Below are positions 27,927 to 52,550 of a stretch of 64,000 nt of DNA, piece by piece. A program made the translations under genes and the position numbers. The stretch spans positions 224,001 to 288,000 of the forward strand of contig CAVQUB010000013.1 in the NCBI GenBank assembly GCA_963716725.1, read 5' to 3'. Positions within the stretch are counted from its first letter, which is position 1. Each line of letters begins with the position of its first letter. The notes below the pieces were generated by a model. The model was given only the letters and a program-made list of their open reading frames with translations, had not been told where the DNA came from and made no database searches. Source of the DNA: an uncultured delta proteobacterium (lineage in GTDB: Bacteria > Myxococcota_A > Polyangia > Polyangiales > Polyangiaceae).

Positions 27927-29024
<1,098 letters not shown>

Positions 29025-37204: not shown

Positions 37205-39142
37205 ATGGGCACCATGAACTGGCCCGATGCGGACCTCCGCGCGGACTTCCTCACTGACAACTTGAGCGCCCTCGGCGCCTCCGCGGTCACCATCGAAAGG
37301 GTGCGCGCGGCTCGCTCCGCCGAGATCGTCGAGATCGAAGCGGGGATCGAGGTGGTGCGGATCGGCGGCACGGTGCTCGGCGCTCCGGCGGACGACTGGG
37401 GACTGGATCGCACCTGCCGCGTCGGCGGGCGGGCTCCGATCGTGGTGTTCGGCCTCGGGACCGGCGACACCGTCCGCTCCGTGCGTAGAGCGTCCGACGC
37501 GCCCGTGGTGGTCTACGAGCCGGACCCAAGCGTCGCTCGCGCGGTGCTCGAGCATGGACCGACCGACCTCGGCGACGCCGATCTGGTGTGCTCCCTCGAC
37601 GAGCTCTCACAACTCTGGTCCGGCCTCGCGCAGGACGAGGTCGGTGCGACCTTCGTTCGAACTCCGGGGTACCCCGAGCGATTTCCGATCGAACACTCCG
37701 CGCTCGAGGCAAAGCTCTCCGAGCTCGTCGACCGCAGCGGCATCAACCGCAATACCCACCAGCAACGTGCCCGCGCCTGGGTCGAGCACCTGTTCGCAAA
37801 CGTCCGCTGCTTGCTCGACGCTTCGCCCTTTGTCGCGCTTCGTGGCCGACTCGAGGGTGTTCCCGCGTTCATCGTCGGAGCCGGCCCATCGTTGGCAAAA
37901 AACGCTGCCTTGCTGCGCGCCGCGACGGAGAAGGGCCTTGTCATCGCCACCAACTCGAGCGGCCGGGTGCTCGCGAAACACGAGGTCGAACCCCAGGTCT
38001 TCTGCTGCATCGAGTCGGTGGACGTCTCTCAGCTCATCGCCTCGCTGCCGTTCGTCGACCGCGCCATTCGCGCCTTCAGCCTGTCCGCGCACCCAAACAC
38101 GTTCCGCACCGGAAGAGGGCCGCTGTTCCCGGTGTGGGAGGCGATCCCGGAGCTCGCAGATCCGATGATGCGCCTGACCGGAGCGCCCGGGCTCGCGGTT
38201 TCGGGGAGCGTCTCGACGCTGGCCTTCTCCCTGGCCTACGCCCTCGGCTGCTCGCCCATCGTATTGGTGGGCCAAGACCTGGCGTACACCGGCCAGCGCA
38301 CCCACGCCGAGGGTAGCGCGTTTGATGCGTCGCGCGTCGAGATCGGCGCCGACGGTAGGCTTCGCATCCAGTGGTGCGCGACCTCGCGCGGCACCCGCGC
38401 GCCAGGTGATCCACCCCTGCACGCTGAAGAGCGCCTCGAGGAGGTGACGGCGTGGGGTGGGCAAGGAAGCGTGCCCTCGGGCCAGAGCTTCGCCGGCCCC
38501 CGCGCATGGCTGAGCGGGGCCGCCGAGCAGCTGCGGCAGCAGTCGTCGAAGACCGAACTCATCAACGCCACGGAGGGCGGCTCGCGCATCGAGGGCTTTA
38601 CGGAGCGCCGGCTGGCCGAGGTGATCGCCGAGCAACCGGATCGCGGCCTCAGCGTCGACGAACTGTGCCGCATGGCAAAGGACTCTGCTCGGGTGGTCGA
38701 CCGCCCCGAATTGTGCGCGTGGGCCGTGGACGAGCGGCAGCGGGTCACTCGGGTTCGAGAGCAGGCACGCCGAACACGCCGAGCCGCCCAGCGCGCGCGA
38801 AGCGCCATCGAGCGCGACCGCCCGCAGGAGGTGACACGGATGTTCGAGCGCCTCGAGGAGTCCGAGACTGCGCTCAGAGCTGCGGTGGAAGCCGCCCCGA
38901 TGGTGAACGCCTGGGCCTTCGCCGAGGTCGAGGCGGCGCTCCAATCGAACGCGCCGACAACAGCCGACGACGCCCGACAGGACGCCCTCTCGTCAGTAGG
39001 CCGAGAGGTCGCGCTGGCGCGAGCCATCGAGGACGCGGCGCGAGCCATCGAGGACAAGCTCAGCCAGATCATTCGAGAGCCCGGCGCGGCTCTTGTCGAG
39101 CCAACCCAGAGCCAAGGAGAACCCGACCCATGCCGATTGTGA
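37205..39142 (+). CDS. Motility-associated factor (Maf/DUF115) flagellin glycosyltransferase
   Basis: FIVGAGPSL, SVSTLAFSLAYALGCSPIVLVGQDLAY, INATEGG; overlaps the first flagellin start. Confidence 0.85.
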   Translation: MGTMNWPDADLRADFLTDNLSALGASAVTIERVRAARSAEIVEIEAGIEVVRIGGTVLGAPADDWGLDRTCRVGGRAPIVVFGLGTGDTVRSVRRASDAPVVVYEPDPSVARAVLEHGPTDLGDADLVCSLDELSQLWSGLAQDEVGATFVRTPGYPERFPIEHSALEAKLSELVDRSGINRNTHQQRARAWVEHLFANVRCLLDASPFVALRGRLEGVPAFIVGAGPSLAKNAALLRAATEKGLVIATNSSGRVLAKHEVEPQVFCCIESVDVSQLIASLPFVDRAIRAFSLSAHPNTFRTGRGPLFPVWEAIPELADPMMRLTGAPGLAVSGSVSTLAFSLAYALGCSPIVLVGQDLAYTGQRTHAEGSAFDASRVEIGADGRLRIQWCATSRGTRAPGDPPLHAEERLEEVTAWGGQGSVPSGQSFAGPRAWLSGAAEQLRQQSSKTELINATEGGSRIEGFTERRLAEVIAEQPDRGLSVDELCRMAKDSARVVDRPELCAWAVDERQRVTRVREQARRTRRAAQRARSAIERDRPQEVTRMFERLEESETALRAAVEAAPMVNAWAFAEVEAALQSNAPTTADDARQDALSSVGREVALARAIEDAARAIEDKLSQIIREPGAALVEPTQSQGEPDPCRL

Positions 39143-39966
39143 CTCAAACCAACGTCGCCTCGCTCGAGACGCAGAAGAACCTGTTTCGCTCCCAGGCAGC
39201 GCTTCAGAAGAGCTTTGCTCGGCTGTCGAGCGGTCACCGGATCAACAGCGCGGCGGACGACGCCGCCGGACTCGCCATCAGCGAGAGCATGCGAACCCAG
39301 ATTCGGTCCTATGTGGTCGCCGAGCGCAACGCCAGCGACGCCATCAGCATGACTCAGACCGCCGAGGGGGCACTGGGAGAGATGCACTCGATCCTCGGGC
39401 GCCTGCGCGAGCTCGCCATGCAGGGCTCCAACGGTTCGATGACGGCCACCGACCGCGGCTACCTGAGCACCGAGTTTTCCGCGCTGCAGGCGGAGATGAC
39501 CCGCATCCAGGCGTCTAGCAAGTTCAACGGCAAGTCGCTGCTCTCGGCGACCGCTTCGAGCCTGACCTTTCAGGTCGGCTTGAACAACACCGCGAGCGAC
39601 AAAGTCACCTTGACTTTCGGCGGACTGGGCCTGACGACGCTGCTTTCTGCTACCACCACGCTGTCTGGAGCGGGAACGACCGCTTCGCTGACGGCTCTGG
39701 GCCGCATCGACTCGGCGCTCGCGACGATTTCGACCAGCCGCGCGCGTTTTGGCGCCGCCATGAACCGTTTCGAGGTCGTGACCTCGTCGATCCAGACCAT
39801 GCGGCTGAACCTCTCCGCCGCCAACTCCCGCATCCGCGACGTCGACGTCGCCGAAGAAACGTCGGCCTTGGCCAGGAATCAGGTGCTCTCTCAGGCTGGC
39901 GTCGCCGTCCTCGCCCAGGCCAATCAGCTCCCCCAGCTGGCCCTGAGCCTGGTGGGCGGTGGCTGA
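39130..39966 (+). CDS. fliC: Flagellin 1 (278 aa)
   Basis: RLSSGHRINSAADDAAGLAISE, NSRIRDVDVAEE, QANQLPQ; SD AAGGAG. Confidence 0.97.
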   Translation: MPIVTQTNVASLETQKNLFRSQAALQKSFARLSSGHRINSAADDAAGLAISESMRTQIRSYVVAERNASDAISMTQTAEGALGEMHSILGRLRELAMQGSNGSMTATDRGYLSTEFSALQAEMTRIQASSKFNGKSLLSATASSLTFQVGLNNTASDKVTLTFGGLGLTTLLSATTTLSGAGTTASLTALGRIDSALATISTSRARFGAAMNRFEVVTSSIQTMRLNLSAANSRIRDVDVAEETSALARNQVLSQAGVAVLAQANQLPQLALSLVGGG

Positions 39967-42739: not shown

Positions 42740-42741
42740 TG

Positions 42742-44079
42742 ATGTCGGCCAGTGTATCGCGAGTCAGCAGCGCGCCTCTCGACGGGGTGTTGCCGCCCAG
42801 GTACGTGGCAGGCGGTAGTCGCTCGGAGGTCTTCGCCCACTTCCCGTCGGGTCTCATCGTCCGCGCTGGGCGCGGCCGCGCGCGGACCTACCCCGGGCTG
42901 CGCGGGGCGGCCCCGCCGACCACGGTGTTTTATGGGATCGCATGCCAGCTTCCCGACGTCGAAAGCGTATTGGACCTGGGCTGTGGCTCCGGGGACGGGA
43001 CGCGCCGGCTGTGCGCTAGATTCCCTTCCGTCACGGGCCTCGACTCGAGCGCGGAGGCGTTGGTCTTCGCTCGCGAATGGTGCCCGCGGGCCCACTTCGC
43101 TCAGGCCGACGCCACCGGGGCGCTCGATGCACCGCTCTTCGATGCAGCCGTCGTCGCCGATCTGCTGGGGCATTTGAGAGATCCCGAGGGCGCACTCCGC
43201 GGCCTGCGCAATCGACTCGCTCCCCAAGGACGACTGTTGGTGGCCGAGCCTCGGGCCATTCCCCTCCAACGGCTCGCCAGTCCGGCACGCCGCGCCCACT
43301 CTCTGCGGTCGCTCGAAGCACTGCTGGTCCGAGGGGGATTCGCCGTGCGCGACTGGATCTCCAAACGAGGCAGCTTCGTTGCTTGCATCGCCGAACCCGA
43401 CACGAGCGCTGGCGCCACAGCGCTGCTCTCGGGCCTGGATGCGCTCGCGGCGGGCGACGCCGCCGCCGCGCGCTCCGCCTTCGCGAGCGCCACCGAATAC
43501 GGCTCACGAGCCATCGCTTGCGAGGCGCTGCTGGCCAGCGCCCGAGCCGCGCTGGCCCTGGGCGAGGGCGACGTGGCTGCGCAGGCTTTGATGGCGGCGG
43601 CAGCGCTCGACAACGCCGACGCCCGGCCGCTGGCGGGACTGGCGGAACTGTCATTTTTGACCAACGACCTGCCGACGGCCCTTCGTCTCGGTCTCGATGC
43701 CGTGCAGCTGGAGGCTACCGAGCCCACCGCCGCGCGGGTCGCCGCGTTCGCCGCGCTCGCGCTCGACCATCGCGACGCGATGAGCGCCATCCGGGTCGCA
43801 AACAACTTGGCGCCGGACGACTTCGACGTGGCTCGCGCGCTCTCGGAGGCCGCGGCCTGCCTGGGCGATGGCGGCCCAGGGGTGGCGGCGCTGGAGCGAG
43901 TACGTTCCTATGGAGACGACGTCGGCGCCGCGTTGCATGTCGAGCTGGCCAGGGCGCTGTTTGCCCAAGGCCGGCGCGCCGATGCCGAGCTCGAGGCCCG
44001 ACTTGCGCGCGCGCGCCACCCCGACGACCCCGAGGTGATCGAGCTGTGGAACTCGCTCCCGGGTCGAGTCGCGCACTGA
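42742..44079 (+). CDS. Class I SAM methyltransferase with TPR-like C-terminus
   Basis: VLDLGCGSG, GLDSS, LGHLRDP, LAPQGRL, then Ala-rich helical repeats. Confidence 0.75.
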   Translation: MSASVSRVSSAPLDGVLPPRYVAGGSRSEVFAHFPSGLIVRAGRGRARTYPGLRGAAPPTTVFYGIACQLPDVESVLDLGCGSGDGTRRLCARFPSVTGLDSSAEALVFAREWCPRAHFAQADATGALDAPLFDAAVVADLLGHLRDPEGALRGLRNRLAPQGRLLVAEPRAIPLQRLASPARRAHSLRSLEALLVRGGFAVRDWISKRGSFVACIAEPDTSAGATALLSGLDALAAGDAAAARSAFASATEYGSRAIACEALLASARAALALGEGDVAAQALMAAAALDNADARPLAGLAELSFLTNDLPTALRLGLDAVQLEATEPTAARVAAFAALALDHRDAMSAIRVANNLAPDDFDVARALSEAAACLGDGGPGVAALERVRSYGDDVGAALHVELARALFAQGRRADAELEARLARARHPDDPEVIELWNSLPGRVAH

Positions 44080-44164: not shown

Positions 44165-45679
44165 TCACGCCACGCACTGCTCGGTCAGCTCGCTGGGCCT
44201 GGGCGCCTCGGATCGCTCGACTTCGACCCGGTTCCTCCCGCCGCGCTTCGCGACATAGAGTGCGGAGTCAGCTCGATTGAAGAGCTCCGACGAGTCAGGC
44301 GGCCCTGCCATGGTGACGGCCACGCCGAAACTGGCGGTGACCGGCAAGGAGGTGCCGTCCTCCAACACGACGGGAGCGGCAGCGATGGCGTTGCGCAAGC
44401 GCTCGGCGACGACGCGCGCGCCCTCGATTTCCGTCACCGGCAGGAGCACGACGAACTCCTCGCCGCCGTAGCGGGCCGGCATGTCACCGGCTCGGAGCGC
44501 GCCGCGCAGCCTTTGCGCCACCGCGCGCAGGGTCTCGTCGCCCGCGGCGTGCCCGTAGGTGTCGTTGACGCGCTTGAAGAGGTCGATGTCCACCATGATC
44601 AGCGAAACGGGCGTCTTTGCGCGGACCGAGCGCGCGAGCTCGCGGGCCAACGCCTCGCGAAACGCTCGATTGTTGGGCAACTCTGTCAGCGAATCCGTGG
44701 CGGCCGCCGCCGAGAGCCGCGCGTTGGCGGACCGCAGCTCGTCGGCCACCAGCTCTTTCTCCGCCATGACCTGCTCGAGTCTGCGCAGGACCGACTCGTA
44801 CTCCAGATTCAGATTGACCAATGCCTGATGCGCGCCTGCGGCCAGCTCCCCGATGCTGCGCTGCGGCTCCAGCTCGCGGTCCAGGAGCGAAGCCGCAGCC
44901 ACAAACTCGACCGGAAAACCCGCTACCAGGTTCCCCGCTTCTTGCCGGTTCAGTCCTACGAGCTCGAGACAAGCCAGGGCGTCATCAGTTGTGGCCCCGT
45001 GAGACTCGAAGACGCCCGCCAAACGTTCGGCGGCCCACGCGATTCGTCCCAGGGGGCTGTCGGGCGGCTCCGGAACATGGTGCATCCGGATCGCGTCCAC
45101 GACGTCGTCGGAGAGTCGAAACGATGACGCGAACTCCGCGCCGACCTCTGGGTGCGGTCGGATGCCGTCGGCTCGCTCCAGGAGCGGCCGGTGGTGAGCG
45201 GGTCGCCGCGCCAGCTCGAGGGCACCTTGAAAGTCTTCCCGGGCGCGCACCAGTAGCCCCACCTCCAAGAACAACCCTAGGGTGAAGGCCGCGTCCGGAT
45301 CACAGAGCCGCGTCGCGCGCGCCACGCACCGAGCCGCCGCCGCCCGTCGGATGCAGTTCGCGAGGAGCACCACGCCGTCGGCAGTTGGGACCATGTCGGA
45401 GAGCGCGAGGCTGAGCCCCAGGTTGCGCAGGCTCCGAATCCCGATCAGGCTCACTGCCTGGCGAACGTCCGTGACGCGGCGCGACAGCCCAAACGCGGCG
45501 CTGTTCACGCAGGTCAAGAGCTTCGCGGCGAAGGCCGGATCGCTCTGGGCGAGGGACGAGAGCTTCGACACCTCGACGTCCGGCTTGATCGACTCCTCCA
45601 CGATTTGCGCCGCGATCAGCGCGATGGGACCGGAGGCTGGCTGGCTGTTGGTCGACACCCTCTTTTCCCGCCTTCCCAA
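44165..45679 (-). CDS. HDOD-GGDEF diguanylate cyclase
   Basis: DPAFAAKLLTCVNSA (HDOD), coiled coil, TDSLTELPN, RAGD I-site, RYGGEEF. Confidence 0.9.
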   Translation of the reverse strand: MGRREKRVSTNSQPASGPIALIAAQIVEESIKPDVEVSKLSSLAQSDPAFAAKLLTCVNSAAFGLSRRVTDVRQAVSLIGIRSLRNLGLSLALSDMVPTADGVVLLANCIRRAAAARCVARATRLCDPDAAFTLGLFLEVGLLVRAREDFQGALELARRPAHHRPLLERADGIRPHPEVGAEFASSFRLSDDVVDAIRMHHVPEPPDSPLGRIAWAAERLAGVFESHGATTDDALACLELVGLNRQEAGNLVAGFPVEFVAAASLLDRELEPQRSIGELAAGAHQALVNLNLEYESVLRRLEQVMAEKELVADELRSANARLSAAAATDSLTELPNNRAFREALARELARSVRAKTPVSLIMVDIDLFKRVNDTYGHAAGDETLRAVAQRLRGALRAGDMPARYGGEEFVVLLPVTEIEGARVVAERLRNAIAAAPVVLEDGTSLPVTASFGVAVTMAGPPDSSELFNRADSALYVAKRGGRNRVEVERSEAPRPSELTEQCVA

Positions 45680-45691
45680 GCCCGAACGGCA

Positions 45692-46504
45692 CTAGCGGGC
45701 CGAGCTTGAGGCCGGCGCTGTCGCAGGCCCGCCGTCCGGACGCTCCGGCTCCTCCGAGGTCGCCGCGATCAGAACCACATCCACCCGGCGATTCTGCGCC
45801 CGCCCCTCCGACGAGTCGTTGGCCGCGACCGGGCGGAACTCGCCGTAGCCCGCCGCCGCGAACCGCTCGGGCGCCATCTTACACGCCTCGACGAAGTAAC
45901 GAACGACCGAAGTCGACCGCCCCGCCGACAGCTCCCAGTTGGATTGGTACCGGATGTTCTTGATCGGCACGTTGTCGGTGTGCCCCTCCACGCGGAGCTC
46001 GAGTTCGCGGCCCTTGAGGGCGTCGGCGATGCCCGAAAGCGCGGCCTGGCCGTCGTCGTTCACTCGAGTATCTCCACTCTCGAAGAGCAGCTGCTCGGGA
46101 AGCCGCAGCACCAGCTCGTCCCGATACTCGATGACCTGCAGGTCTCGCAGCTCCGGCACGGACTTGAATTTCTCTCTCAGCTCTCGGCCCAGCGGGGACT
46201 CGTCGACGCGAACACGCGAGTTGTGTCCGAGCACCGCCTTGCCCACCGGCTTGACGCTCTGTCCCACCAGCGGCTGGATGCGCTTGTCCGCTGGCATGAA
46301 CCCCTTTCCTCCCTTGGCGTCGAAGACCTGCCACTCCAGGGCGTCGGTGAACGACTCGGTGAAGCGCCCGACCTGCTTGGTGTCCACCTGGGACACCGCG
46401 AACATGACCACGAAGAACGCGAAGAGCAGGGTGATGAAGTCTGCGTAGCTGATCAGCCAGCGCTCGTGATTGACGTGCTCCGGCGGCTTCTTTTTGCGAG
46501 CCAT
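45692..46504 (-). CDS. motB: Stator protein MotB
   Basis: ERWLISYADFITLLFAFFVVMFA, VEGHTD, SNWELSAGR, NRRV. Confidence 0.95.
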   Translation of the reverse strand: MARKKKPPEHVNHERWLISYADFITLLFAFFVVMFAVSQVDTKQVGRFTESFTDALEWQVFDAKGGKGFMPADKRIQPLVGQSVKPVGKAVLGHNSRVRVDESPLGRELREKFKSVPELRDLQVIEYRDELVLRLPEQLLFESGDTRVNDDGQAALSGIADALKGRELELRVEGHTDNVPIKNIRYQSNWELSAGRSTSVVRYFVEACKMAPERFAAAGYGEFRPVAANDSSEGRAQNRRVDVVLIAATSEEPERPDGGPATAPASSSAR

Positions 46505-46514
46505 GGCCGCCCGC

Positions 46515-47324
46515 TCAAGCCGCCACGCTCTTCGGCGCGGCCCCGGCGGGAGCGCCGTCTTTGCCCTTGGCGCTGGGGCCCTCGTGGGGCACGAGGCCTT
46601 CCAGGCGCTCGCGCAGCACCATTGGGTTCACTCCTTGCTGGATACCGAGTGCACCCTCCAACATCAGGGTCAGGGTCTGAACATGATCGCGGGTCCGGAT
46701 CTTCATCTTGCCGCCGCAAGGGAGCGCGATGATGTTCGCGATGGCAACGCCGTAGATGGTCGCGACGAAGGCCGTCGCGATGCCATGTCCGACCTTCTCG
46801 ATGTCCGACAGGTTCTGCATCACCTGGATCAGACCGAGCACGGCGCCGATGATGCCAACCGTCGGGGCGTAGCCGCCAATGGCTTCGAACACCTTCGCCA
46901 CGTCCTCGCCTTGTTCCTCGGCATGGTCAATGGTGGATTCCAGGGTCTGCGTCATCTGATTGCTGTCGGCGCCGTCGACCGCCAGCATCAGCGCTCGCGC
47001 CAAGAAGGGATCGGACGCGTTTGGTGCCACCGACTCGAGCGCCAGGATCCCGTCGCGACGCGCGGTGGTCGCGTAGCCCACGATCTCCTCGATCAGCTCC
47101 TTGGCTCGGCTCTTGGGAGGGTTGATCACGAGCTTGAAGCTCTTCATCGCCCGCACGAAGGTGCCCATGGGGAACTGAAGCATGGTCGCACCGATGGTCC
47201 CACCAGCGACGATGCCGAACGCGATGGGGTTGAGAACCTGCGACATCTTGCCGCCTTCGAGCACGTTTCCGCCGAAGATGGCCAGCAAGCCCAACGCCAG
47301 TCCAAATATTGAGGCCTTGTCCAT
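46515..47324 (-). CDS. motA: Stator protein MotA
   Basis: ARRDGILALE, GGYAPTVGIIGAVLGLI, AFVATIYG. Confidence 0.95.
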   Translation of the reverse strand: MDKASIFGLALGLLAIFGGNVLEGGKMSQVLNPIAFGIVAGGTIGATMLQFPMGTFVRAMKSFKLVINPPKSRAKELIEEIVGYATTARRDGILALESVAPNASDPFLARALMLAVDGADSNQMTQTLESTIDHAEEQGEDVAKVFEAIGGYAPTVGIIGAVLGLIQVMQNLSDIEKVGHGIATAFVATIYGVAIANIIALPCGGKMKIRTRDHVQTLTLMLEGALGIQQGVNPMVLRERLEGLVPHEGPSAKGKDGAPAGAAPKSVAA

Positions 47325-47325
47325 C

Positions 47326-47586
47326 TCACTCCTCGTCGTCTTTGCACTCGTCGAGCTGCTGGGTGACCTGTCTCGAAGGAGGGTGCGCGCTCCCCGGCCC
47401 TAGCGGTTGATGCACGGATCGACGGAAGTTCACGACCCTCGCCATCACCTCGTCGAGGGACTCCCGCACCATGATCCGATCCCCGTTCAAGAATTCCATA
47501 GTCGTATCCGGCGTCACCTCGATCCAGGTCACGAGGTCCGGGTTGATGGCGATCACGCCGCCATTGAGCCTTGTCAGTTGGATCAT
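47326..47586 (-). CDS. flbD: FlbD (SwrD/YlzI) family flagellar protein
   Basis: MIQLTRLNG...INPDLV..IEVTPDT...NGDRIMVRES. Confidence 0.9.
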   Translation of the reverse strand: MIQLTRLNGGVIAINPDLVTWIEVTPDTTMEFLNGDRIMVRESLDEVMARVVNFRRSVHQPLGPGSAHPPSRQVTQQLDECKDDEE

Positions 47587-48677
47587 GCTTCGGGTTTCCG
47601 GGTGAGCTCGGCCTCTACGACCTCGCAGATCGCGTGCCAGCTCAGAATGTGCAGCTCCTGGATGCGCGGCGTCGATGTCGACGGCGCGCGAAACCGGAGT
47701 TCGGCGACGTCGGCGACTCGACCGCCACTGGCGCCGGTGAACGCCACGGGGATCGCCCCGATCTCCCGGGCTGCCTCCAGTGCGCGCACGACGTTCTTGG
47801 ATTGTCCGCTGGTGCTGATGCCAACCACGACGTCACCCGGACGTCCGAGTCCACGCACCTGCCGCGCGAAGACCTCGTCGAAGCTCCAATCGTTGCCGAT
47901 GGCGGTCAAGATGGACGAATCGGTGGTGAGCGCGACGGCCGGCCACGGCTCGCGCTCACGCGAGAACCGTCCCACCAACTCGGCGGCCACGTGCTGGGCG
48001 TCCGCTGCGCTCCCGCCGTTGCCGCAGAACATCGCCTTTTTCCCGGTTGAGATAGCCCGAACCAGGACCCGCGCTATTTCGCACAGCGTCGGGGTCGCTT
48101 CTTCGAGCATGCGCTGGTGCGCTTCGAGGCTCTCGCCCAAGGCCGCAGCGATGCCCCGACTGCGCTCGATGAGGTCGGCGTCACGGCCGACGATGCGCAG
48201 GACAATCTCGACCGCCTCCGCCACGGCGCCCGAACCGCCAGAGCGCGTGAGAACGCGATCCGCTCGCTCTCTCGCCTGACGAGAGGCATCGGCGGGGGCC
48301 AATGCGAGCCCTACGCTCGCGAACGCGGCTGCATCGCGGTCGGCGTCCCCGACGAAACACACGGTGTCGAGTTCGGCGTGCATGTCCCGCGCGAGCTGGC
48401 GCAGCGCCGCAGCCTTGTCCTTGGCGCCGCGGATGACTCGCTCCGCGCCGGTTCGCTGCGCGATGACATCGACCAGCGGGCCCTCCTCGCCGGTCACCAG
48501 TGCGATCCGAAGCCCGGCCCGGCGGGCCGCCGTGAGCGCATCGAGATCGCGGAACGCGATTCCCTTGCTCTCTTCCCCACCCGGCCCCAGCTCGACGCGC
48601 CCGTCGGTGAGCACGCCATCCACGTCCAGCGCCAGCACTTCCAATACGGACTGGGAAATCATGGTTTTTCCAATCAA
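47583..48677 (-). CDS. KdsC-like HAD phosphatase fused to GmhA-type phosphoheptose isomerase
   Basis: N-terminal LDVDGVLTDG, VTG, FVGDADRD, GGSGAVAE. C-terminal CGNGGSAADAQH, TAIGND, ISTSG, RIQELH. Confidence 0.9.
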   Translation of the reverse strand: MIGKTMISQSVLEVLALDVDGVLTDGRVELGPGGEESKGIAFRDLDALTAARRAGLRIALVTGEEGPLVDVIAQRTGAERVIRGAKDKAAALRQLARDMHAELDTVCFVGDADRDAAAFASVGLALAPADASRQARERADRVLTRSGGSGAVAEAVEIVLRIVGRDADLIERSRGIAAALGESLEAHQRMLEEATPTLCEIARVLVRAISTGKKAMFCGNGGSAADAQHVAAELVGRFSREREPWPAVALTTDSSILTAIGNDWSFDEVFARQVRGLGRPGDVVVGISTSGQSKNVVRALEAAREIGAIPVAFTGASGGRVADVAELRFRAPSTSTPRIQELHILSWHAICEVVEAELTRKPEA

Positions 48678-49417
48678 GCCGGGCGCCGCAGTCGCGACAC
48701 AGGCGCCTGAGGCCTCCGCGAATTTGTCAGTGCACGCTCGAGCGACGGGATCTGATCGGGGTAATCCAAGTCGAGCACGCGTTCGAAGATGACGAAGGGG
48801 AGGATGAGCGCGCCGTTCATCGAGTCCTGCTCGAGCACCCGCGGTCGGAGCACGTCCACGTAGCCATTTCCGCGGTACACGGGCGGCAGCTGTTGGCGCG
48901 GCATGTTGTGGGCCTCCGGCAGGCCGGAGACCGCCAGAACTGGGCGTAGCCTGCCGCCGTCGATGCAGTACATCTTGTAGGGGGTGTGCTCGGCGAGCTC
49001 GACCGACCGTAGTGAGTCGGCCTCGGGGTGCTTGATCATCTCGTCGATACCCCTATCGACCACGGCAGCCTCACGCGCGGGCTGGGTCGGGCGCAGGTGA
49101 ACGACCAAGTCGGGTTGATAGCCCTCAGCCGCGAGCCAACCCAGCGCGTGGCGGAAGACCTGCAAATCGGTTGCCTCGTCGGTAGCGTGCTCGGCCGGTC
49201 GGCGAAACGGCACCTCTGCGCCGGCCTTGGTGGCAACGTCGGCGATCTCCGGATCGTCCGTCGAGACGATGGTGCGGGTGATCCGGCGCGACGCCAGTGC
49301 CGTCTCAATCGTGTGCACGATCAGCGCTTTGCCAGCGATCGGCAGCAGGTTCTTGCGGGGGATCCCCTTGGAGCCTCCGCGGGCGGGGATCAGCGCCAAT
49401 ACCTCGAGCGAGGTCAT
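48674..49417 (-). CDS. CMP-ulosonic acid synthetase (NeuA/PseF-like cytidylyltransferase)
   Basis: IPARGGSKGIPRKN, VSTDD, AEVPFRRP, LRPTQP, RQQLP. Confidence 0.92.
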   Translation of the reverse strand: MTSLEVLALIPARGGSKGIPRKNLLPIAGKALIVHTIETALASRRITRTIVSTDDPEIADVATKAGAEVPFRRPAEHATDEATDLQVFRHALGWLAAEGYQPDLVVHLRPTQPAREAAVVDRGIDEMIKHPEADSLRSVELAEHTPYKMYCIDGGRLRPVLAVSGLPEAHNMPRQQLPPVYRGNGYVDVLRPRVLEQDSMNGALILPFVIFERVLDLDYPDQIPSLERALTNSRRPQAPVSRLRRPA

Positions 49418-49422
49418 CTTCC

Positions 49423-50289
49423 TCACGCCACTCGCCGCAGCTTGTTCATGATCGGGACCTCGTCCGAGCTCACCGTCTTCACGCCGTCGCCGAGGGCTCG
49501 CTCGACGGCACGAATGTCTCGAACCAGCTTCATCAAGCCTTGGGGCTCGACGCTGGCGGCCTGGTCGCTGCCCCACATGGCGCGATCCAGGGTGATGTGG
49601 CGCTCGACCATGCAAGCGCCCATGGCCACGGCGGCGAGGGATGTCGCCAGGCCGACCTCGTGTCCGGAGTAGCCGACAGGCACCCCGTAGCGCTCGGCGA
49701 GTTTGGGGATCATCCGCAGATTCAGGTCTTCCAGCTTGGCGGGGTAGGCGCTGGTCGTGTGGAGCAGAACCAGGTTCTCGGTGCCGAGCTGTTCGACAGC
49801 GCGATCGACTTGCTCCGTGGTGCTCATCCCGGTGGACATGATCAGCGGCCGACCGGTTCGTCGATGGTGAGCGAGTAGCTTCTCGTCGGTGAGGCAGGCC
49901 GAAGCGATCTTGTAGGCGGGTGGATTGAACTGCTCGATGAAGTCGACGCTTCGCTCGTCCCAACACGACGCGAACCAGGTCATGCTCTTGTCACGGCAAT
50001 ACCGCTGCATTTCCCAGTACTGTCCGAGCCCGAACTCGAGGCCTCGTTTCAGATCGCCATTCGTCTTTCCGAAGGGACTCTCGCGGGGACGAGCCAGCTC
50101 TTCTTCGCCGTACACGATCTCGAGGGTTCGCTTCTGGAACTTGACAGCCTGGCAGCCAGCGATGGCAGCGACGTCGACCAGACGCCGCGCAATGTCGATG
50201 TCGCCGTTATGGTTGATGCCGATCTCGGCAATCACGTAGCAAGGGGACCCCTCACCGATGCGTGCTCCGTTGATGATGACCTCGGGCAT
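49423..50289 (-). CDS. NeuB-family ulosonic acid(-phosphate) synthase with no C-terminal SAF domain
   Basis: IAEIGINHNG, VKFQKR, KIASA, GYSGHE, ERHITLDR..WGSDQ..SVEP; 288 aa. Confidence 0.92.
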   Translation of the reverse strand: MPEVIINGARIGEGSPCYVIAEIGINHNGDIDIARRLVDVAAIAGCQAVKFQKRTLEIVYGEEELARPRESPFGKTNGDLKRGLEFGLGQYWEMQRYCRDKSMTWFASCWDERSVDFIEQFNPPAYKIASACLTDEKLLAHHRRTGRPLIMSTGMSTTEQVDRAVEQLGTENLVLLHTTSAYPAKLEDLNLRMIPKLAERYGVPVGYSGHEVGLATSLAAVAMGACMVERHITLDRAMWGSDQAASVEPQGLMKLVRDIRAVERALGDGVKTVSSDEVPIMNKLRRVA

Positions 50290-50316
50290 GAACTGATTCC
50301 TCCGAAGAAGGGCGTT

Positions 50317-50332
50317 TGCAACCGCCGTGCCG
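50317..50332 (-). promoter_or_regulatory. Sigma54 promoter (neuB to motAB-dgc operon)
   Basis: CGGCACGGCGGTTGCA; SD GGAGG downstream. Confidence 0.8.
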
Positions 50333-51115
50333 CTAGACGCGATCCGCTTCATCGCGACGGTCATTGCGATCCGACAGGATCCGGACCGCCGTTCGCCCCA
50401 CCTCGTCCGCCAGCGCCAATGCGCTGACAAAGGGAGTGTCCACCGGCGCAAGCTCGGTGCCGGAACGAGTCGGTGCAGCGAGCGCCCCCGGCAAACGGGT
50501 CGGGGCAACCCCGGGAGTTCCTCCAACAGCGTCGAATCCGGACTGCAGGGCGACTGCGGAGAGCTTGGCCACGGAGCGCGAATAGGCCCCGGCGTCGCCC
50601 GTGAAGTAGCCGCGGGACTTGAGGCCGCGGACAAACGCCGCTGGGTCTCCCTCCTTCGCCCCCTGAAGGGCCGCACCGTAGCGTCTCTCCAACAAGCCGA
50701 TGTAGTCGGCGGCACCTTCGTCCGCGCTTCGATATGCGCGGAAGCGATCGTGAATGACCCGTTCGCTCGCCCCGGAGCCCTCGCGCGTTCTCTGCACTAC
50801 GGAGAGCCCCGACGGACCGACGCCTTTGATCCCGCCGAAGTTGAAGTTGTACATGGATCCGCCACGCCCAGTTTCGTGCGCCCACTGTGCGACCAGTACC
50901 CCCATCGTCTCCCGGCTCGGTTGCTCGCCGAAGCGTGCGGTCCAGGCGCGTTCGAGCGCGGTTCGTGCCTCTTCACCCGACAGGGAGGTCCGGCGCACCG
51001 CGGCGGCACCGGCCCGTTCGAGTTCCAGGTCGAAGCCCGCCGCCGGTGGTGGCGGCCGCGGCACCGGCGCAGCGCGGGGCTCTGAGGCGACCACGGGGAC
51101 CACGCCGACGTTCAT
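50333..51115 (-). CDS. Stand-alone GH73-like peptidoglycan hydrolase (FlgJ muramidase-like)
   Basis: AQWAHETGRG, NFGGIKG, FRAYRS, RY, GYFTG..Y; no Sec signal peptide evident. Confidence 0.75.
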   Translation of the reverse strand: MNVGVVPVVASEPRAAPVPRPPPPAAGFDLELERAGAAAVRRTSLSGEEARTALERAWTARFGEQPSRETMGVLVAQWAHETGRGGSMYNFNFGGIKGVGPSGLSVVQRTREGSGASERVIHDRFRAYRSADEGAADYIGLLERRYGAALQGAKEGDPAAFVRGLKSRGYFTGDAGAYSRSVAKLSAVALQSGFDAVGGTPGVAPTRLPGALAAPTRSGTELAPVDTPFVSALALADEVGRTAVRILSDRNDRRDEADRV

Positions 51116-51273: not shown

Positions 51274-51289
51274 TGGCGTAAGCTTTGCT
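51274..51289 (+). promoter_or_regulatory. Putative sigma54 promoter (REC-HDOD and flgF)
   Basis: TGGCGTAAGCTTTGCT; ATG at predicted +4. Confidence 0.7.
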
Positions 51290-51302
51290 CGGTGGGGGCA
51301 TC

Positions 51303-52550
51303 ATGAGTGAAGCAATCGGGCGGGACGGACCCATTCAGGTCCTCCTGGTCGACGACGACCCACTTGTCCTCAAGAGCGTCGCGCGACTGCTCGGCAGCGT
51401 CGAGCCCAACTGGACCGTCGCCACAGCGGGCTCGGGGGAGGAGGCCATTGGGATCCTCGAGAAACAGCCCATAGATTTGGTCCTGTCGGATCTCAATCTG
51501 GGCGCAACGAACATGAGCGGCGCTGAGCTTCTCTCGTACGTACAGGAGCGCCACCCGGACGTCGTGCGGATCCTCCTGACGGGCCAAGCAACGCCGGAGA
51601 TGGCTCATCGTTCCCTGCCCGCGGCCCACTCGCTGCTACAGAAGCCCTTCGAGCGCCTGGAGCTCCACGCGAAGCTGCGACGGGCCGCCGAGCTGCGCGA
51701 GCTGCTGACGAACACCCGCATCCGGAGCCTGATCGGGTCGAGCAATCGGCTCCCCTCGCCCCCAAAGGTCTTCCACGAGGTGGCCGTGGCCCTGGCCGGA
51801 CGCCGCGCTGGAATGGAAGACGTCGCCTGCCTGATCGAAAGGGACGTCGCGCTCTCCGCGCAACTGATCCGCCTCGTGTCGTCCGCCTTCTTCGGTCTGC
51901 CACCGCGCGTGCGGAGCGTGCGCGGGGCCATCGCGTACTTGGGATTCAACACGGTCAAGACCCTCGTGCTCAGCGCGTCCATCGTCGAGCAATATCGAAC
52001 GACTCGGCCCGTCCGCGGTTTCGACCTCGACGGACTGCAAGCGCACGCGGTGGCCAGCGCCCATATCGCGCGCCAGGTGGTGGGGGAACCGGGCCTGACC
52101 GAGTCGGCCTTCAGCGCCGCGATGCTGCAGAACGTCGGCCAACTCCTGCTGGCGTCCCGGGCACCGGACGAATACTCCGAAGTGTTGATCCGCCAGCGCG
52201 AGGGCGCGCCGCCGGAGCAGGGCGAGGCCGACGTGTTCGGCGTCGCTCATCCGCAGATAGGCGCCTACCTGCTGGGCATATGGGGCCTGCCCAGCAGCTT
52301 GATCCGCGGGGTCCTCCACCATCACGAGGTTCAGCGCAGCGTGTCCTCCCGCATGGACGTGGCCCTAGCGGTGAACATCGCCGCGAAGCTGGCGAGCTCG
52401 CCGGACGCGCCGGCTCTGGACGACCCGGGAGATGACCCCTTCGTCATCGACCTCGCCCATTTGCGCGAACTGGGAGTGGCCCAGCTCTTGCCTGAGTGGC
52501 GTGAGACTGCCAGGCGCATGCTGGAGTCTAGCGGAGGAAATGATCGATGA
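51303..52550 (+). CDS. REC-HDOD response regulator
   Basis: LLVDDD, VLSDL, LLTG, QKP; then LPSPP, DVALSAQLIRLVSSAFF, WGLP, HHH. The HD motif is replaced by QN. Confidence 0.88.
   Translation: MSEAIGRDGPIQVLLVDDDPLVLKSVARLLGSVEPNWTVATAGSGEEAIGILEKQPIDLVLSDLNLGATNMSGAELLSYVQERHPDVVRILLTGQATPEMAHRSLPAAHSLLQKPFERLELHAKLRRAAELRELLTNTRIRSLIGSSNRLPSPPKVFHEVAVALAGRRAGMEDVACLIERDVALSAQLIRLVSSAFFGLPPRVRSVRGAIAYLGFNTVKTLVLSASIVEQYRTTRPVRGFDLDGLQAHAVASAHIARQVVGEPGLTESAFSAAMLQNVGQLLLASRAPDEYSEVLIRQREGAPPEQGEADVFGVAHPQIGAYLLGIWGLPSSLIRGVLHHHEVQRSVSSRMDVALAVNIAAKLASSPDAPALDDPGDDPFVIDLAHLRELGVAQLLPEWRETARRMLESSGGNDR

What the first reader, a model, noticed from the sequence alone, without database searches (positions are those of the whole stretch)
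47583..50332. Flagellin glycosylation pathway with a phosphatase-GmhA fusion: possible ten-carbon (heptose-derived) ulosonic acid
Seen: a sigma54-driven run of SAF-less NeuB, NeuA-like cytidylyltransferase and a KdsC-like HAD phosphatase fused to a GmhA with intact motifs, plus a Maf transferase (37205-39142) overlapping flagellin 1. No NeuC, Pse or Leg amino-sugar genes are in the window. Established: synthase + C0 HAD phosphatase + CMP synthetase is the logic of the KDN route (mannose-6-P + PEP). GmhA makes D-glycero-D-manno-heptose-7-P, and Maf proteins transfer CMP-ulosonic acids to flagellin. Inference: the fusion supplies heptose-7-P, a one-carbon-extended mannose-6-P, to NeuB. That would give a 3-deoxy-deculosonate-10-P that is dephosphorylated, CMP-activated and attached to flagellin. 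I know of no characterised C10 flagellin sugar. Alternatives are plain KDN with a repurposed isomerase, or GmhA serving an unrelated heptose pathway.
Basis: partly seen in the sequence, partly recalled or inferred. Interest (0 to 1): 0.85.

Follow-up and report, generated by a model that had tools for sequence, protein, structure and literature searches.

The report
Heptose-fed sialic-acid-like flagellin sugar pathway
A three-gene operon inside a flagellar gene cluster encodes everything needed to build and activate a sialic-acid-like sugar for the flagellum, and its built-in heptose-phosphate isomerase suggests the sugar may have ten carbons, a type whose biosynthesis has not been described.

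Summary
On the minus strand, a sigma54-like promoter precedes neuB (49423-50289, 288 aa, no SAF domain), neuA (48674-49420) and a KdsC-like HAD phosphatase fused to a canonical GmhA (47583-48677). flbD-motAB follow directly. A Maf transferase overlaps flagellin 1 by 10 nt.

The link is not chance. All 3 fusion loci fetched have a SAF-less NeuB within 5 kb, against 1 of 77 stand-alone gmhA loci. That one (L022) carries the same four activities as separate adjacent genes. Fusions exist in every combination: HAD-GmhA, GmhA-HAD, NeuB-GmhA, GmhA-NeuB, HAD-NeuB and NeuA-HAD-NeuB.

The GmhA domain cannot be told apart from ordinary GmhA at any conserved position. GmhA-linked NeuBs share a loop signature that is absent from GmhA-less relatives.

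Best reading (about 0.5): sedoheptulose-7-P is isomerised to heptose-7-P and condensed with PEP. The product is dephosphorylated, CMP-activated and transferred to flagellin, giving a C10 3-deoxy-ulosonic acid. Plain KDN (C9) remains the main rival. No chemistry was tested. I found no paper describing this cassette. Mass-spectrometry reports of unexplained C10 ulosonic acids exist for other bacteria.

The parts
50317..50332 (-). sigma54-type -24/-12 promoter-like element (CGGCAC-N5-TTGCA), 28 nt upstream of the neuB ATG
   Evidence: One mismatch to TGGCAC-N5-TTGCW, a consensus I recalled. The same element sits at the same place in L001 (CGGCACGACCGTTGCA) and L002 (TGGCAAGACCTTTGCA). Across the window there are 37 matches against 21.9 expected, and 0 of 100 shuffles reach 37.
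49423..50289 (-). neuB: SAF-less NeuB-family ulosonate (phosphate) synthase, 288 aa
   Evidence: Pfam NeuB 260.6 bits, no SAF. TIGR03569 scores 253.5, below the cut-off of 399.65. The best PDB hit is the 290-aa SAF-less 6ncs. All 120 top homologues are 287-296 aa with the NeuB domain only. The metal-binding His in GHE and ERH are kept, and the position of N. meningitidis Glu134 is Cys.
48674..49420 (-). neuA: CMP-ulosonic acid synthetase (cytidylyltransferase), 248 aa
   Evidence: Pfam CTP_transf_3 78.5 bits. PseF TIGR03584 scores 113.9, below its cut-off. PDB CMP-NeuAc synthetase 6ifd matches at E=4.3e-26.
47583..48677 (-). Fusion protein: N-terminal KdsC-type (C0) HAD phosphatase (aa ~10-165) plus C-terminal GmhA sedoheptulose-7-P isomerase (aa ~175-360). 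The likely start is the ATG at 48662.
   Evidence: The DxDGT, K and GDxxxD HAD motifs are intact. The GmhA GNGGS and STSGxS loops and the E233/Q340/H348 triad are intact.
45692..47586 (-). flbD (47326-47586), motA (46515-47324) and motB (45692-46504), directly downstream on the same strand. The flbD start overlaps the fusion's stop.
   Evidence: Pfam hits; junction sequence. The same gene order is seen in L001.
37205..39142 (+). maf: MptE-like (Maf-family) putative flagellin glycosyltransferase, 645 aa
   Evidence: Pfam MptE-like 97.6 bits. NCBIfam PseD domain model scores 73.2, far below its cut-off of 670. No PDB sequence match. Syntenic with the L001 Maf at 70% identity.
39133..39966 (+). 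Flagellin 1 (277 aa), which overlaps the end of maf by 10 nt and is the presumed acceptor
   Evidence: NCBIfam flagellin NF009444 267.8 bits
40083..40913 (+). Flagellin 2 (276 aa)
   Evidence: Pfam Flagellin_N and Flagellin_C
27927..29024 (+). Sigma54-dependent transcriptional activator (AAA+ domain plus Fis-type HTH); candidate regulator of the sigma54 promoters in the cluster
   Evidence: Pfam Sigma54_activat 236.4 bits
50333..51115 (-). flgJ-like glucosaminidase gene immediately upstream; its 3' end carries the promoter-like element
   Evidence: Pfam Glucosaminidase. The same position is occupied in L001.

Best explanation
**What it is.** A sigma54-dependent operon, neuB-neuA-(HAD::gmhA)-flbD-motAB, encodes a self-contained four-activity pathway. 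It turns central metabolites into a CMP-activated 3-deoxy-2-ulosonic acid. The Maf protein encoded next to the two flagellin genes then attaches it to flagellin.

**Most likely steps (all inferred from sequence).**
1. The GmhA domain isomerises sedoheptulose-7-P to D-glycero-D-manno-heptose-7-P.
2. The SAF-less NeuB condenses this manno-configured aldose phosphate with PEP to give a 3-deoxy-dec-2-ulosonate 10-phosphate. This is KDN-9-P extended by one CHOH.
3. The KdsC-type HAD domain removes the terminal phosphate.
4. NeuA makes the CMP-sugar.
5. Maf transfers it to Ser/Thr of the flagellins.

**How it compares.** The logic is that of the Kdo pathway (KdsD-KdsA-KdsC-KdsB) and the KDN pathway, with a heptose-phosphate isomerase at the entry.

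**Shown versus inferred.** Shown here: domain identities, intact catalytic motifs, operon structure, conserved linkage and gene fusions. Inferred: substrates, product size and the flagellin target.
For: **Domain identities.**

**Conserved cassette.**
- L001, L002 and L003 each have a SAF-less NeuB and a cytidylyltransferase within 5 kb of (L003: directly beside) the fusion. Their record titles give Polyangiaceae, 'Proteobacteria' and Lachnospiraceae MAGs.
- L022 has gmhA, a kdsC-like HAD, a SAF-less neuB and a cytidylyltransferase as four consecutive separate genes.
- Only 1 of 77 stand-alone gmhA loci has any NeuB homologue nearby.

**Rosetta-stone fusions.**
- At least 38 of the best 150 50%-identity representatives match the HAD-SIS fusion end to end.
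- SIS-HAD in reverse order: P0125, P0143, P0149, P0156.
- NeuB-GmhA: P0393 and P0398. GmhA-NeuB: P0422. HAD-NeuB: P0445.

**The GmhA domain looks native.**
- No position conserved at 85% or more in 63 stand-alone representatives differs in the 42 fusions.
- The E-Q-H triad and the sedoheptulose-7-P-contacting Asn/Gly/Ser/Thr residues named in PMC4697000 and PMC7705670 are kept.
- It is 58% identical to a Polynucleobacter gmhA.
- It is 46-50% identical to GmhA domains fused to a heptosyltransferase, a PfkB-family kinase, or an NTP_transferase plus a HAD-like (Hydrolase_like) phosphatase domain.
- Fusion SIS domains are scattered among ordinary GmhAs in the tree, so native activity appears to have been recruited more than once.

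**NeuB signatures.**
- All 8 of 8 known GmhA-linked NeuBs have V-Y at positions 59-60 and T-[NQ]-[GR] at 76-78, in the beta2-alpha2 loop.
- All 22 of 22 Maf-fused NeuBs and at least 72 of the 80 NeuBs in proteins of 600 aa or more (the NeuA/HAD-fused actinomycete forms and a few others) have P-x-x-P and [TS]-Y-[LM] instead.
- PMC8208679 states that the human enzyme's alpha2-beta2 loop favours the 6-phosphate substrate.
- The whole SAF-less family lacks the acidic residue at the N. meningitidis Glu134 position. That paper places this position near where a substrate phosphate would lie.

**Flagellar context.** Sigma54-like promoter; Maf and flagellins.

**Independent mass spectrometry.** Unexplained C10-marker ulosonic acids, including CMP-activated forms, are reported in Magnetospirillum gryphiswaldense (passages of PMC8157484 and bioRxiv 10.64898/2026.04.20.719630).
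Against: - No enzyme assay or glycan mass exists for this or any related locus.
- I found no description of a 3-deoxy-deculosonic acid.
- NeuB homologues 57-61% identical to the window's occur as NeuA-HAD-NeuB fusions without any SIS domain in many Streptosporangiaceae and other actinomycetes. The same synthase family therefore works without GmhA, probably on mannose-6-P to make KDN. I recall, but did not verify, that actinomycete cell walls contain Kdn.
- In Serratia marcescens a NeuA/NeuB pair is required for KDN production (passages of PMC9000132).
- GmhA-linked NeuBs form three separate groups on an unresolved backbone rather than one supported clade. P0393 and P0398 were dropped from that tree because their NeuB match was split.
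- The loop signature could reflect descent rather than specificity. Whether the genomes of the other NeuB subfamily carry a gmhA nearby is unknown.
- The 63 'stand-alone GmhA' controls were chosen by similarity to the query and are not biochemically verified.
- TIGR00441 and TIGR01670 scores fall just below NCBI's equivalog/subfamily cut-offs.
- The C10 acids reported in Magnetospirillum are di-N-acetylated and differ from C9 by CH2, not CH2O. They are not the same compound.
Confidence: 0.5

Rival explanations
1. Plain KDN (C9). The cassette makes CMP-KDN from mannose-6-P plus PEP, as proposed for Bacteroides and probably actinomycetes. The GmhA-like domain either works as a fructose-6-P to mannose-6-P isomerase (the same 2-keto to manno-aldose chemistry on a substrate one carbon shorter) or is dispensable.
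For: - Synthase plus KdsC-type phosphatase plus cytidylyltransferase is the KDN logic. NCBIfam's KDN-9-P phosphatase model hits the HAD domain at 76.6 bits, and it is the best hit for the L022 HAD at 77.6 bits.
- NeuB relatives 57-61% identical are fused to NeuA and HAD without any isomerase.
- Serratia NeuA/NeuB give KDN (passages of PMC9000132).
- KDN is a known sugar, whereas the C10 acid is not.
Against: - No conserved GmhA position is altered in the fusions.
- Only a 3-residue gap separates the SIS domain from P. aeruginosa GmhA crystallised with product.
- Fusion SIS domains sit among ordinary GmhAs in the tree. A change of substrate would therefore have had to occur repeatedly.
- Phosphomannose isomerase is a common housekeeping enzyme (recalled), and the GmhA-less NeuA-HAD-NeuB fusions show that the KDN-type route needs no dedicated isomerase.
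- GmhA-linked NeuBs have a different beta2-alpha2 loop from the GmhA-less ones.
Confidence: 0.2
2. Two separate jobs. The HAD-GmhA fusion supplies heptose (or heptose phosphate) for a different glycan, or for a second sugar on flagellin. NeuB and NeuA act on a hexose derivative made by genes elsewhere in the genome, for example a Pse/Leg/Neu-type precursor.
For: - Only 64 kb of the genome is visible.
- L022 and L003 carry additional Pse-type or other NulO genes nearby.
- GmhA normally feeds nucleotide-heptose pathways.
Against: - Direct NeuB-GmhA and GmhA-NeuB fusion proteins exist.
- No heptose kinase, GmhB or heptose nucleotidyltransferase is in the window, L001 or L002.
- The HAD domain is KdsC-type, not GmhB-type (100.1 against 16.3 bits).
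- The SAF-less NeuB lacks both the SAF arginine and the Glu134 equivalent of hexosamine-using synthases.
- The three genes are translationally coupled in one operon.
Confidence: 0.15
3. The SIS domain is non-catalytic: a sugar-phosphate sensor or scaffold like the GmhA homologue DiaA. In this reading it only regulates or tethers the phosphatase.
For: - DiaA-type proteins are close GmhA relatives (NF008138 148 bits).
- A few fusion homologues (P0122, P0137, P0152) have degenerate GNGGS/His motifs.
Against: - The catalytic Glu is retained here and in 41 of 42 fusions. PMC4697000 reports it replaced by Gln in the DiaA-like Colwellia protein and reports Glu-to-Gln mutants as inactive.
- All substrate-contact residues are kept.
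Confidence: 0.05

Closest known systems
Kdo biosynthesis (KdsD arabinose-5-P isomerase, KdsA synthase, KdsC phosphatase, KdsB CMP-Kdo synthetase). The pathway is recalled; the KdsC and KdsB family matches are.
   Same: The same four-step logic is used: a SIS-fold ketose-P to aldose-P isomerase, PEP condensation to a 3-deoxy-ulosonate phosphate, a C0 HAD phosphatase of the KdsC family, and a CMP transferase.
   Different: The isomerase is GmhA-type (C7), not KdsD-type (C5). The synthase is NeuB-family, not KdsA-family. The expected product is C10, not C8. The target is flagellin via Maf, not lipid A.
KDN pathway (KDN-9-P synthase plus KDN-9-P phosphatase plus CMP-KDN synthetase). The Bacteroides thetaiotaomicron work is recalled. 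The NCBIfam model NF058599 'KDN-9-PPhBT' was seen.
   Same: A NeuB-family synthase presumably acts on a manno-configured sugar phosphate. A KdsC-like phosphatase and a cytidylyltransferase complete the route.
   Different: The known pathway has no dedicated isomerase. Here a canonical GmhA is fused or adjacent in every instance examined. GmhA-linked NeuBs also carry a distinct loop signature.
Leptospira interrogans NeuB-phosphatase fusion and the animal Neu5Ac-9-P route (PMC3438082, abstract and passages)
   Same: A gene fusion of a NulO synthase with a phosphatase was used there to infer a phosphorylated-sugar route. The same style of inference applies here.
   Different: That case concerns ManNAc-6-P and Neu5Ac. 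No isomerase is involved and no heptose.
GmhA in ADP-/GDP-heptose pathways (structures 1x92, 2i22, 2x3y; PMC4697000 and PMC7705670, passages)
   Same: The SIS domain matches these structures at E=3.6e-50 to 7.9e-39. It keeps the catalytic triad, the residues at the zinc-ligand positions, and the phosphate loop.
   Different: It is not accompanied by a heptose kinase, GmhB or a nucleotidyltransferase. It is fused to a KdsC-type phosphatase and linked to NeuB instead.
Maf-dependent flagellin glycosylation with Pse/Leg (PMC4065374; search listing and abstract start only)
   Same: An MptE-like Maf gene lies next to the flagellin genes, and a CMP-ulosonic acid donor pathway sits within the flagellar cluster.
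   Different: No amino-sugar (PseB/C/H/G, LegB/C/H/G, NeuC) genes are in the window. The donor is predicted to be a non-aminated 3-deoxy acid.

Membership tests
GmhA (sedoheptulose-7-phosphate isomerase) | SIS_2 fold and a family HMM match | tested here: inconclusive
   Pfam SIS_2 scores 94.3 bits, above its cut-off of 27. TIGR00441 scores 195.2 against the equivalog cut-off of 209.45, and NF010546 scores 214.9 against 276. The match is clear but just under NCBI's equivalog thresholds.
GmhA (sedoheptulose-7-phosphate isomerase) | Catalytic Glu-Gln-His triad and the His/Glu/Gln/His positions that I recall as the zinc ligands of the B. pseudomallei enzyme | tested here: met
   H229, E233, Q340 and H348 are present and 93-98% conserved in the 42 fusions. 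The triad is defined in passages of PMC4697000.
GmhA (sedoheptulose-7-phosphate isomerase) | Substrate/phosphate loops GNGGS and S-T-S-G-x-S | tested here: met
   G219-S223 and S288-S293 are present. The contacts are listed in passages of PMC7705670.
GmhA (sedoheptulose-7-phosphate isomerase) | Isomerase activity on sedoheptulose-7-P | not testable with these tools
   Needs an enzyme assay
KdsC / 8KDOP-type C0 HAD phosphatase | HAD motifs I-IV (DxDGT, T/S, K, GDxxxD) and a family HMM match | tested here: inconclusive
   The motifs D18-x-D20-G-V-L-T, K88 and G110-D111...D115 are conserved. TIGR01670 scores 100.1 against the cut-off of 106.95. PDB KdsC 7t35 matches at E=1.4e-23. The motifs are met but the HMM score is just under its cut-off.
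GmhB (heptose 1,7-bisphosphate 7-phosphatase) | Family HMM match | tested here: not met
   NF006506 scores 16.3 bits against a cut-off of 178. Separate GmhA fusions carrying a HAD-like Hydrolase_like domain (annotated as heptose-1,7-bisphosphate phosphatase family) exist elsewhere and score lower in the Atlas (0.80).
NeuB / nonulosonic acid synthase | NeuB TIM-barrel domain with metal-binding His residues | tested here: met
   Pfam NeuB 260.6 bits. H210 and H231 are invariant in alignment A2 and align to the His of the N. meningitidis SDH and ERH motifs.
NeuB / nonulosonic acid synthase | C-terminal SAF (antifreeze-like) domain contributing Arg314 | tested here: not met
   The protein ends after the NeuB domain. 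No SAF hit was found. All 120 top homologues have the NeuB domain only.
NeuB / nonulosonic acid synthase | Acidic residue at the N. meningitidis Glu134 position; NeuB or PseI equivalog score | tested here: not met
   The position is Cys here and Ser/Cys/Met/Gly across the SAF-less family. TIGR03569 scores 253.5 against 399.65 and TIGR03586 scores 211.4 against 340.25.
CMP-NulO/Kdo synthetase (CTP_transf_3) | Family HMM match and the N-terminal PARxGSKG CTP-binding motif (motif recalled) | tested here: met
   Pfam CTP_transf_3 78.5 bits. The sequence IPARGGSKGIPRKN is present. The PseF equivalog cut-off is not reached (113.9 against 205.7).
Maf flagellin glycosyltransferase | MptE-like domain, adjacency to flagellin genes, glycosyltransfer to flagellin | tested here: inconclusive
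   MptE-like scores 97.6 bits and the gene overlaps flagellin 1. NF050051 PseD scores 73.2 against 670. There is no PDB sequence match. Activity is not testable here.
KDN pathway | Synthase uses mannose-6-P; no dedicated isomerase is needed | not testable with these tools
   The gene content exceeds the KDN set by a GmhA. The NeuB loop signature differs from that of the GmhA-less subfamily. Substrate use needs an assay.

The most novel reading that the evidence does not exclude
This cassette (GmhA plus type-I SAF-less NeuB plus KdsC-type phosphatase plus cytidylyltransferase) would be the first genetically defined route to ten-carbon 'deculosonic' sialic-acid-like sugars. The route runs from sedoheptulose-7-P and PEP to a CMP-activated sugar used to decorate flagellin. 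Relatives carrying extra aminotransferase, dehydrogenase or isomerase genes (L002, L022) would make tailored C10 acids. The cassette occurs in several phyla. It could be the kind of pathway behind the unexplained higher-carbon ulosonic acids seen by mass spectrometry.
Probability: 0.5. Interest if true: 0.85.

Novelty: new variant of a known kind. Interest (0 to 1): 0.72.

Why it matters
All characterised PEP-condensing ulosonic acid pathways stop at nine carbons: DAHP (C7), Kdo (C8) and sialic-acid-like sugars (C9). A conserved cassette that feeds a heptose phosphate into a NeuB-type synthase would extend this series to C10.

It would also give a gene marker for finding such sugars in genomes and metagenomes. 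Two mass-spectrometry studies report unassigned C10 ulosonic acids without any biosynthetic genes, and this offers a testable hypothesis for that kind of compound.

Flagellin glycans affect filament assembly, phage recognition and immune detection, so a new glycan class there has practical interest.

Even if the product proves to be KDN, two results remain new annotation knowledge. The first is the split of SAF-less NeuBs into two subfamilies. The second is the network of fusions among NeuB, HAD, GmhA, NeuA and Maf. These proteins are currently labelled 'N-acetylneuraminate synthase' and 'D-sedoheptulose 7-phosphate isomerase'.

Tried and rejected
1. **PtmF idea.** I recalled that Campylobacter PtmF might be a GmhA-like SIS protein acting with PtmA. 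This was wrong. Table 5 of PMC4481668 lists PtmF as a 326-aa oxidoreductase. L002 does carry PtmF-like (GFO_IDH) and PtmA-like (SDR) genes, but the window does not.

2. **Genome scan.** No second scan was allowed. The wider co-occurrence survey, a check for a second housekeeping gmhA in the same genomes, and a look at the Magnetospirillum gryphiswaldense genome all stayed undone.

3. **Plasmids.** tblastn of the fusion against the plasmid collection found 174 records with GmhA-only matches. None covered 80% or more of the query.

4. **Complex prediction.** NeuB (alignment A2) was folded with the fusion (alignment A1). The scores were 0.00 and 0.00 and the verdict was 'no answer'. I do not use this as evidence either way.

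5. **The listing of cluster members.** I asked for organism names of the fused proteins.

6. **SIS-domain tree.** The FastTree tree has low resolution (75 of 181 inner branches open). It shows the fusions are not one clade but cannot count origins.

7. **NeuB tree.** The backbone is unresolved. P0393 and P0398 were dropped because their HMM match was split. My length rule mislabelled P0399 and P0401 as NeuA/HAD-fused.

8. **Literature.** Searches for deculosonic acid or a ten-carbon sugar, GmhA with NulO or flagellin glycosylation, KDN-9-P synthase, teichulosonic acid genes and heptose-7-P with PEP or NeuB found no paper on this cassette. PMC13317340 had none of my search terms.

9. **Closed collections.** bioRxiv supplements (the SugarBase SI) were not available.

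Full report
**What is in the window.** The 64-kb window is 67% G+C and is almost entirely a flagellar regulon. It holds the export apparatus, rod, hook and ring genes, the C-ring, FlgM/FlgN, FlgK/L, CsrA, two flagellins, FliD and FliS. It also holds MotAB with FlbD, a sigma54 activator, and many HDOD/GGDEF/PilZ signalling proteins. Its closest relatives are MAGs labelled Polyangiaceae or Myxococcota.

The finding lies on the minus strand.
- A flgJ-like glucosaminidase gene (50333-51115) comes first.
- neuB follows at 49423-50289. It is 288 aa, starts MPEV and has a GGAGGA ribosome-binding site.
- neuA follows at 48674-49420.
- The HAD::GmhA fusion gene follows at 47583-48677.
- The fusion's stop overlaps the start of flbD, and motA and motB come next.

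A sigma54-type -24/-12 element (CGGCAC-N5-TTGCA) sits 28 nt before the neuB ATG. It recurs at the same place in the two related loci that have this upstream region. Matches to the consensus are enriched in the window: 37 against 21.9 expected, with 0 of 100 shuffles as high.

Maf (37205-39142) overlaps flagellin 1 (39133-39966) by 10 nt.

I scanned 64 ORFs. The unannotated remainder is eight gaps of 328-1042 bp. No NeuC, Pse, Leg or nucleotide-heptose genes are present.

**Domain identities.**

*NeuB.* It has only the NeuB TIM-barrel domain (260.6 bits) and no SAF domain. Its best solved relative is a 290-aa SAF-less protein, 6ncs. All 120 top homologues are 287-296 aa with the NeuB domain only.

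*NeuA.* It is a CTP_transf_3 cytidylyltransferase, closest to solved CMP-NeuAc synthetases.

*The fusion, N-terminal half.* It is a KdsC-type HAD. TIGR01670 scores 100.1 bits against a cut-off of 106.95. The KDN-9-P phosphatase model scores 76.6 and GmhB scores only 16.3. All HAD motifs are intact.

*The fusion, C-terminal half.* It is a GmhA. It matches P. aeruginosa GmhA 1x92 at E=3.6e-50 and is 58% identical to a Polynucleobacter gmhA. It retains the Glu-Gln-His catalytic triad and the GNGGS and STSGxS substrate loops described in passages of PMC4697000 and PMC7705670.

**Is the association real?** Every line I could test says yes.
- All three have a SAF-less NeuB and a cytidylyltransferase within 5 kb of the fusion; in L003 the NeuB gene lies directly beside it.
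  - L001 is syntenic with the window.
  - L002 has an added AP_endonuc_2 isomerase-like gene, a GFO/IDH oxidoreductase and an SDR.
  - L003 is a Lachnospiraceae MAG glycosylation island with Maf.
- Among the 77 stand-alone gmhA loci, a local tblastn found a NeuB homologue within +-10 kb in only one, L022.
- L022 turned out to carry the same module unfused. It has gmhA (192 aa), a KdsC/KDN-9-P-phosphatase-like HAD (185 aa), a SAF-less NeuB (260 aa, 52% identical to the window's) and a cytidylyltransferase as consecutive genes. These are followed by an aminotransferase, an AP_endonuc_2 protein and two SDRs.
- Many of the 77 control loci are short contigs, so the contrast is somewhat overstated.
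- In the protein database, 118 of the 120 best hits to the fusion list both a SIS and a HAD Pfam domain.
- At least 38 of the best 150 50%-identity representatives match it end to end, down to 32% identity.
- Fourteen longest-contig lengths are shared between the fusion hits and the NeuB hits. This indicates the same contigs.
- The Atlas places fusion clusters in Myxococcota, Bacillota and Thermodesulfobacteriota.

**Gene fusions link all the parts.** The following forms exist:
- SIS-HAD in reverse order: P0125, P0143, P0149, P0156.
- NeuB-GmhA: P0393 and P0398. GmhA-NeuB: P0422.
- HAD-NeuB: P0445.
- NeuA-HAD-NeuB proteins of about 685 aa in many Streptosporangiaceae and other actinomycetes.
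- NeuB fused to a Maf-like MptE domain, with the named records from Tepidisphaeraceae.

The NeuB-GmhA fusions join what would be consecutive steps under the heptose hypothesis.

**Does the GmhA domain still do GmhA chemistry?** I compared 42 fusion SIS domains with 63 stand-alone representatives.
- No position conserved at 85% or more in the latter is changed in the former.
- No fusion-specific conserved residue was found.
- In a low-resolution tree the fusion domains form at least two groups plus scattered single rows, among ordinary GmhAs with ordinary branch lengths.
- The domain is as similar (46-50%) to GmhA domains fused to a heptosyltransferase, a PfkB-family kinase, or an NTP_transferase with a HAD-like domain as it is to distant fusion homologues.

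Repeated recruitment of unmodified GmhA is easier to explain if its native product, D-glycero-D-manno-heptose-7-P, is what the pathway needs. This is inference.

The controls were picked by similarity and none is biochemically verified.

**Two kinds of SAF-less NeuB.** Aligning the NeuB domains gave two results.

First, the whole SAF-less family lacks the acidic residue at the N. meningitidis Glu134 position. It is Ser, Cys, Met or Gly instead. PMC8208679 (passages) places this residue near where a substrate 6-phosphate would lie. This fits a phosphorylated substrate, as does the KdsC-type phosphatase.

Second, the beta2-alpha2 loop splits the family.
- All 8 of 8 NeuBs known to be GmhA-linked have V-Y at positions 59-60 and T-[NQ]-[GR] at 76-78. 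These are the window's NeuB, those of L001, L002, L003 and L022, and P0393, P0398 and P0422.
- At least 109 of the 120 close 288-aa homologues do too.
- All 22 of 22 Maf-fused NeuBs and at least 72 of 80 NeuBs in proteins of 600 aa or more have P-x-x-P and [TS]-Y-[LM]. The latter group is mostly the NeuA/HAD-fused actinomycete forms.

The same paper states that the human enzyme's alpha2-beta2 loop favours the 6-phosphate substrate.

In an IQ-TREE tree the actinomycete fused forms are one strongly supported clade (100 SH-aLRT). The Maf-fused forms are another (96). The GmhA-linked NeuBs lie outside both, in three groups on an unresolved backbone.

This fits a GmhA-specific synthase subfamily. 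It could also be simple descent, and I could not check whether genomes of the second subfamily have a gmhA nearby.

**Mechanism proposed.**
1. Sedoheptulose-7-P is isomerised to D-glycero-D-manno-heptose-7-P by the GmhA domain.
2. NeuB condenses it with PEP to a 3-deoxy-dec-2-ulosonate 10-phosphate.
3. The HAD domain removes the phosphate.
4. NeuA makes the CMP-sugar.
5. Maf transfers it to flagellin.

A variant cannot be excluded: the HAD domain first frees the heptose and NeuB then uses the unphosphorylated sugar. That variant also gives a C10 acid.

Placing the genes in one sigma54 operon with flbD-motAB would tie glycan supply to flagellar assembly. I put about 0.85 on the general scheme, meaning a CMP-ulosonic acid made through a phosphorylated intermediate for flagellin. 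I put about 0.5 on the C10 product.

**Rivals.**
- *Plain KDN, about 0.2.* The GmhA-less NeuA-HAD-NeuB fusions are 57-61% identical in the NeuB part. Serratia needs NeuA/NeuB for KDN (PMC9000132, passages). So this synthase family can work without GmhA, and the SIS domain might act on fructose-6-P. Against this are the unchanged GmhA active site, its apparent repeated recruitment, and the fact that the GmhA-less fusions need no dedicated isomerase.
- *Two unrelated jobs, about 0.15.* This is disfavoured by the direct NeuB-GmhA fusions and by the absence of any heptose kinase or nucleotidyltransferase.
- *A non-catalytic, DiaA-like SIS domain, about 0.05.* This is disfavoured by the retained catalytic Glu.

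**Literature.** Four searches found no paper describing a deculosonic acid, a heptose-7-P/PEP condensation, or GmhA within NulO or flagellin glycosylation clusters.

Two mass-spectrometry studies report potential ten-carbon ulosonic acids in Magnetospirillum gryphiswaldense and Methanococcus, including CMP-activated forms. The passages I read name no biosynthetic genes (PMC8157484; bioRxiv 10.64898/2026.04.20.719630). Those compounds are di-N-acetylated and differ from C9 by CH2, so they are not the product predicted here. They do show that higher-carbon ulosonic acids are being detected without a genetic explanation.

PMC8208679 notes that SAF-less NeuBs are common in environmental bacteria but assigns them no substrate. 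PMC3438082 used a NeuB-phosphatase fusion in Leptospira to infer a phospho-sugar route, which is a precedent for the reasoning used here. The Bacteroides KDN pathway and actinomycete Kdn polymers are recalled, not read.

**Verdict.** This is a new variant of the Kdo/KDN/sialic-acid type of pathway, defined by a built-in heptose-phosphate isomerase. It is conserved as a cassette across at least three phyla. The product's carbon number needs biochemistry.

Noticed in passing
window 2724-3569, 4667-6607, 44165-45679, 51285-52550 (plus 3569-4600 and 426-1190): Four HDOD-domain proteins lie inside one flagellar cluster: one alone with HD, one large, one fused to GGDEF and one to a receiver domain. 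A receiver-GGDEF protein and a PilZ protein with a partial kinase-like match are also there. This is an unusually dense set of c-di-GMP-type regulators around the motor genes.
   Followed up: no
window 33460-33753 and 50333-51115: FlgJ appears split. A small ORF matching only the N-terminal rod-binding part of FlgJ follows flgI. The glucosaminidase domain is a separate gene 17 kb away, directly upstream of neuB.
   Followed up: partly
window ~42775-44079 (+); L001 12518-13912: A SAM-dependent methyltransferase with TPR repeats lies just after fliS. It is 76% identical to the L001 protein. My GC3 filter missed it, and I did not run the correct reading frame (ORF 42562-44079) through Pfam. It could methylate flagellin or its glycan.
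   Followed up: partly
whole window; L001: A complete flagellar gene set sits in a lineage whose nearest database records are labelled Polyangiaceae or Myxococcota. I recall this group as gliding and non-flagellated. The taxonomic labels are those of MAG records.
   Followed up: no
proteins P0392-P0430: About 22 proteins of about 550 aa fuse a SAF-less NeuB (59-62% identical to the window's) to a Maf-like MptE domain. The two records that carry an organism name are from Tepidisphaeraceae. In these proteins the sugar synthase and the putative transferase form one polypeptide.
   Followed up: partly
proteins P0429-P0509: NeuA-HAD-NeuB triple fusions of about 685 aa are widespread in Streptosporangium, Nonomuraea, Microbispora, Sphaerisporangium and other actinomycetes. 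They cover three of the four activities of the cassette in one protein and have no isomerase.
   Followed up: partly
L003 1065-20629: The Lachnospiraceae island also holds a second NeuB fused to a cupin domain, CDP-glucose synthase and 4,6-dehydratase genes, and an acetolactate-synthase-like TPP enzyme right after the fusion. Two radical-SAM proteins and two FkbM methyltransferases are there too. This suggests heavy tailoring of the sugar.
   Followed up: no
L022 1-17598: The unfused cassette sits next to a Pse-type cluster: PseC, PseF, PseG and a SAF-containing PseI, with a formyltransferase and a deacetylase. A LIC12162-family transferase is also there. The organism probably makes two different ulosonic acids.
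   Followed up: partly
proteins P0122, P0137, P0152 (alignment A1): A few HAD-SIS fusion homologues have degenerate GmhA motifs: the GNGGS loop and the catalytic His/Glu region are altered. Some lineages may have lost isomerase activity.
   Followed up: no
L002 6244-9996; L022 13678-16091; PMC9000132: An AP_endonuc_2 (COG1082, sugar-phosphate isomerase/epimerase-like) gene accompanies the SAF-less NeuB in L002 and L022. According to the paper, the same domain is fused to the NeuB required for KDN production in Serratia marcescens. Its role is unknown.
   Followed up: no
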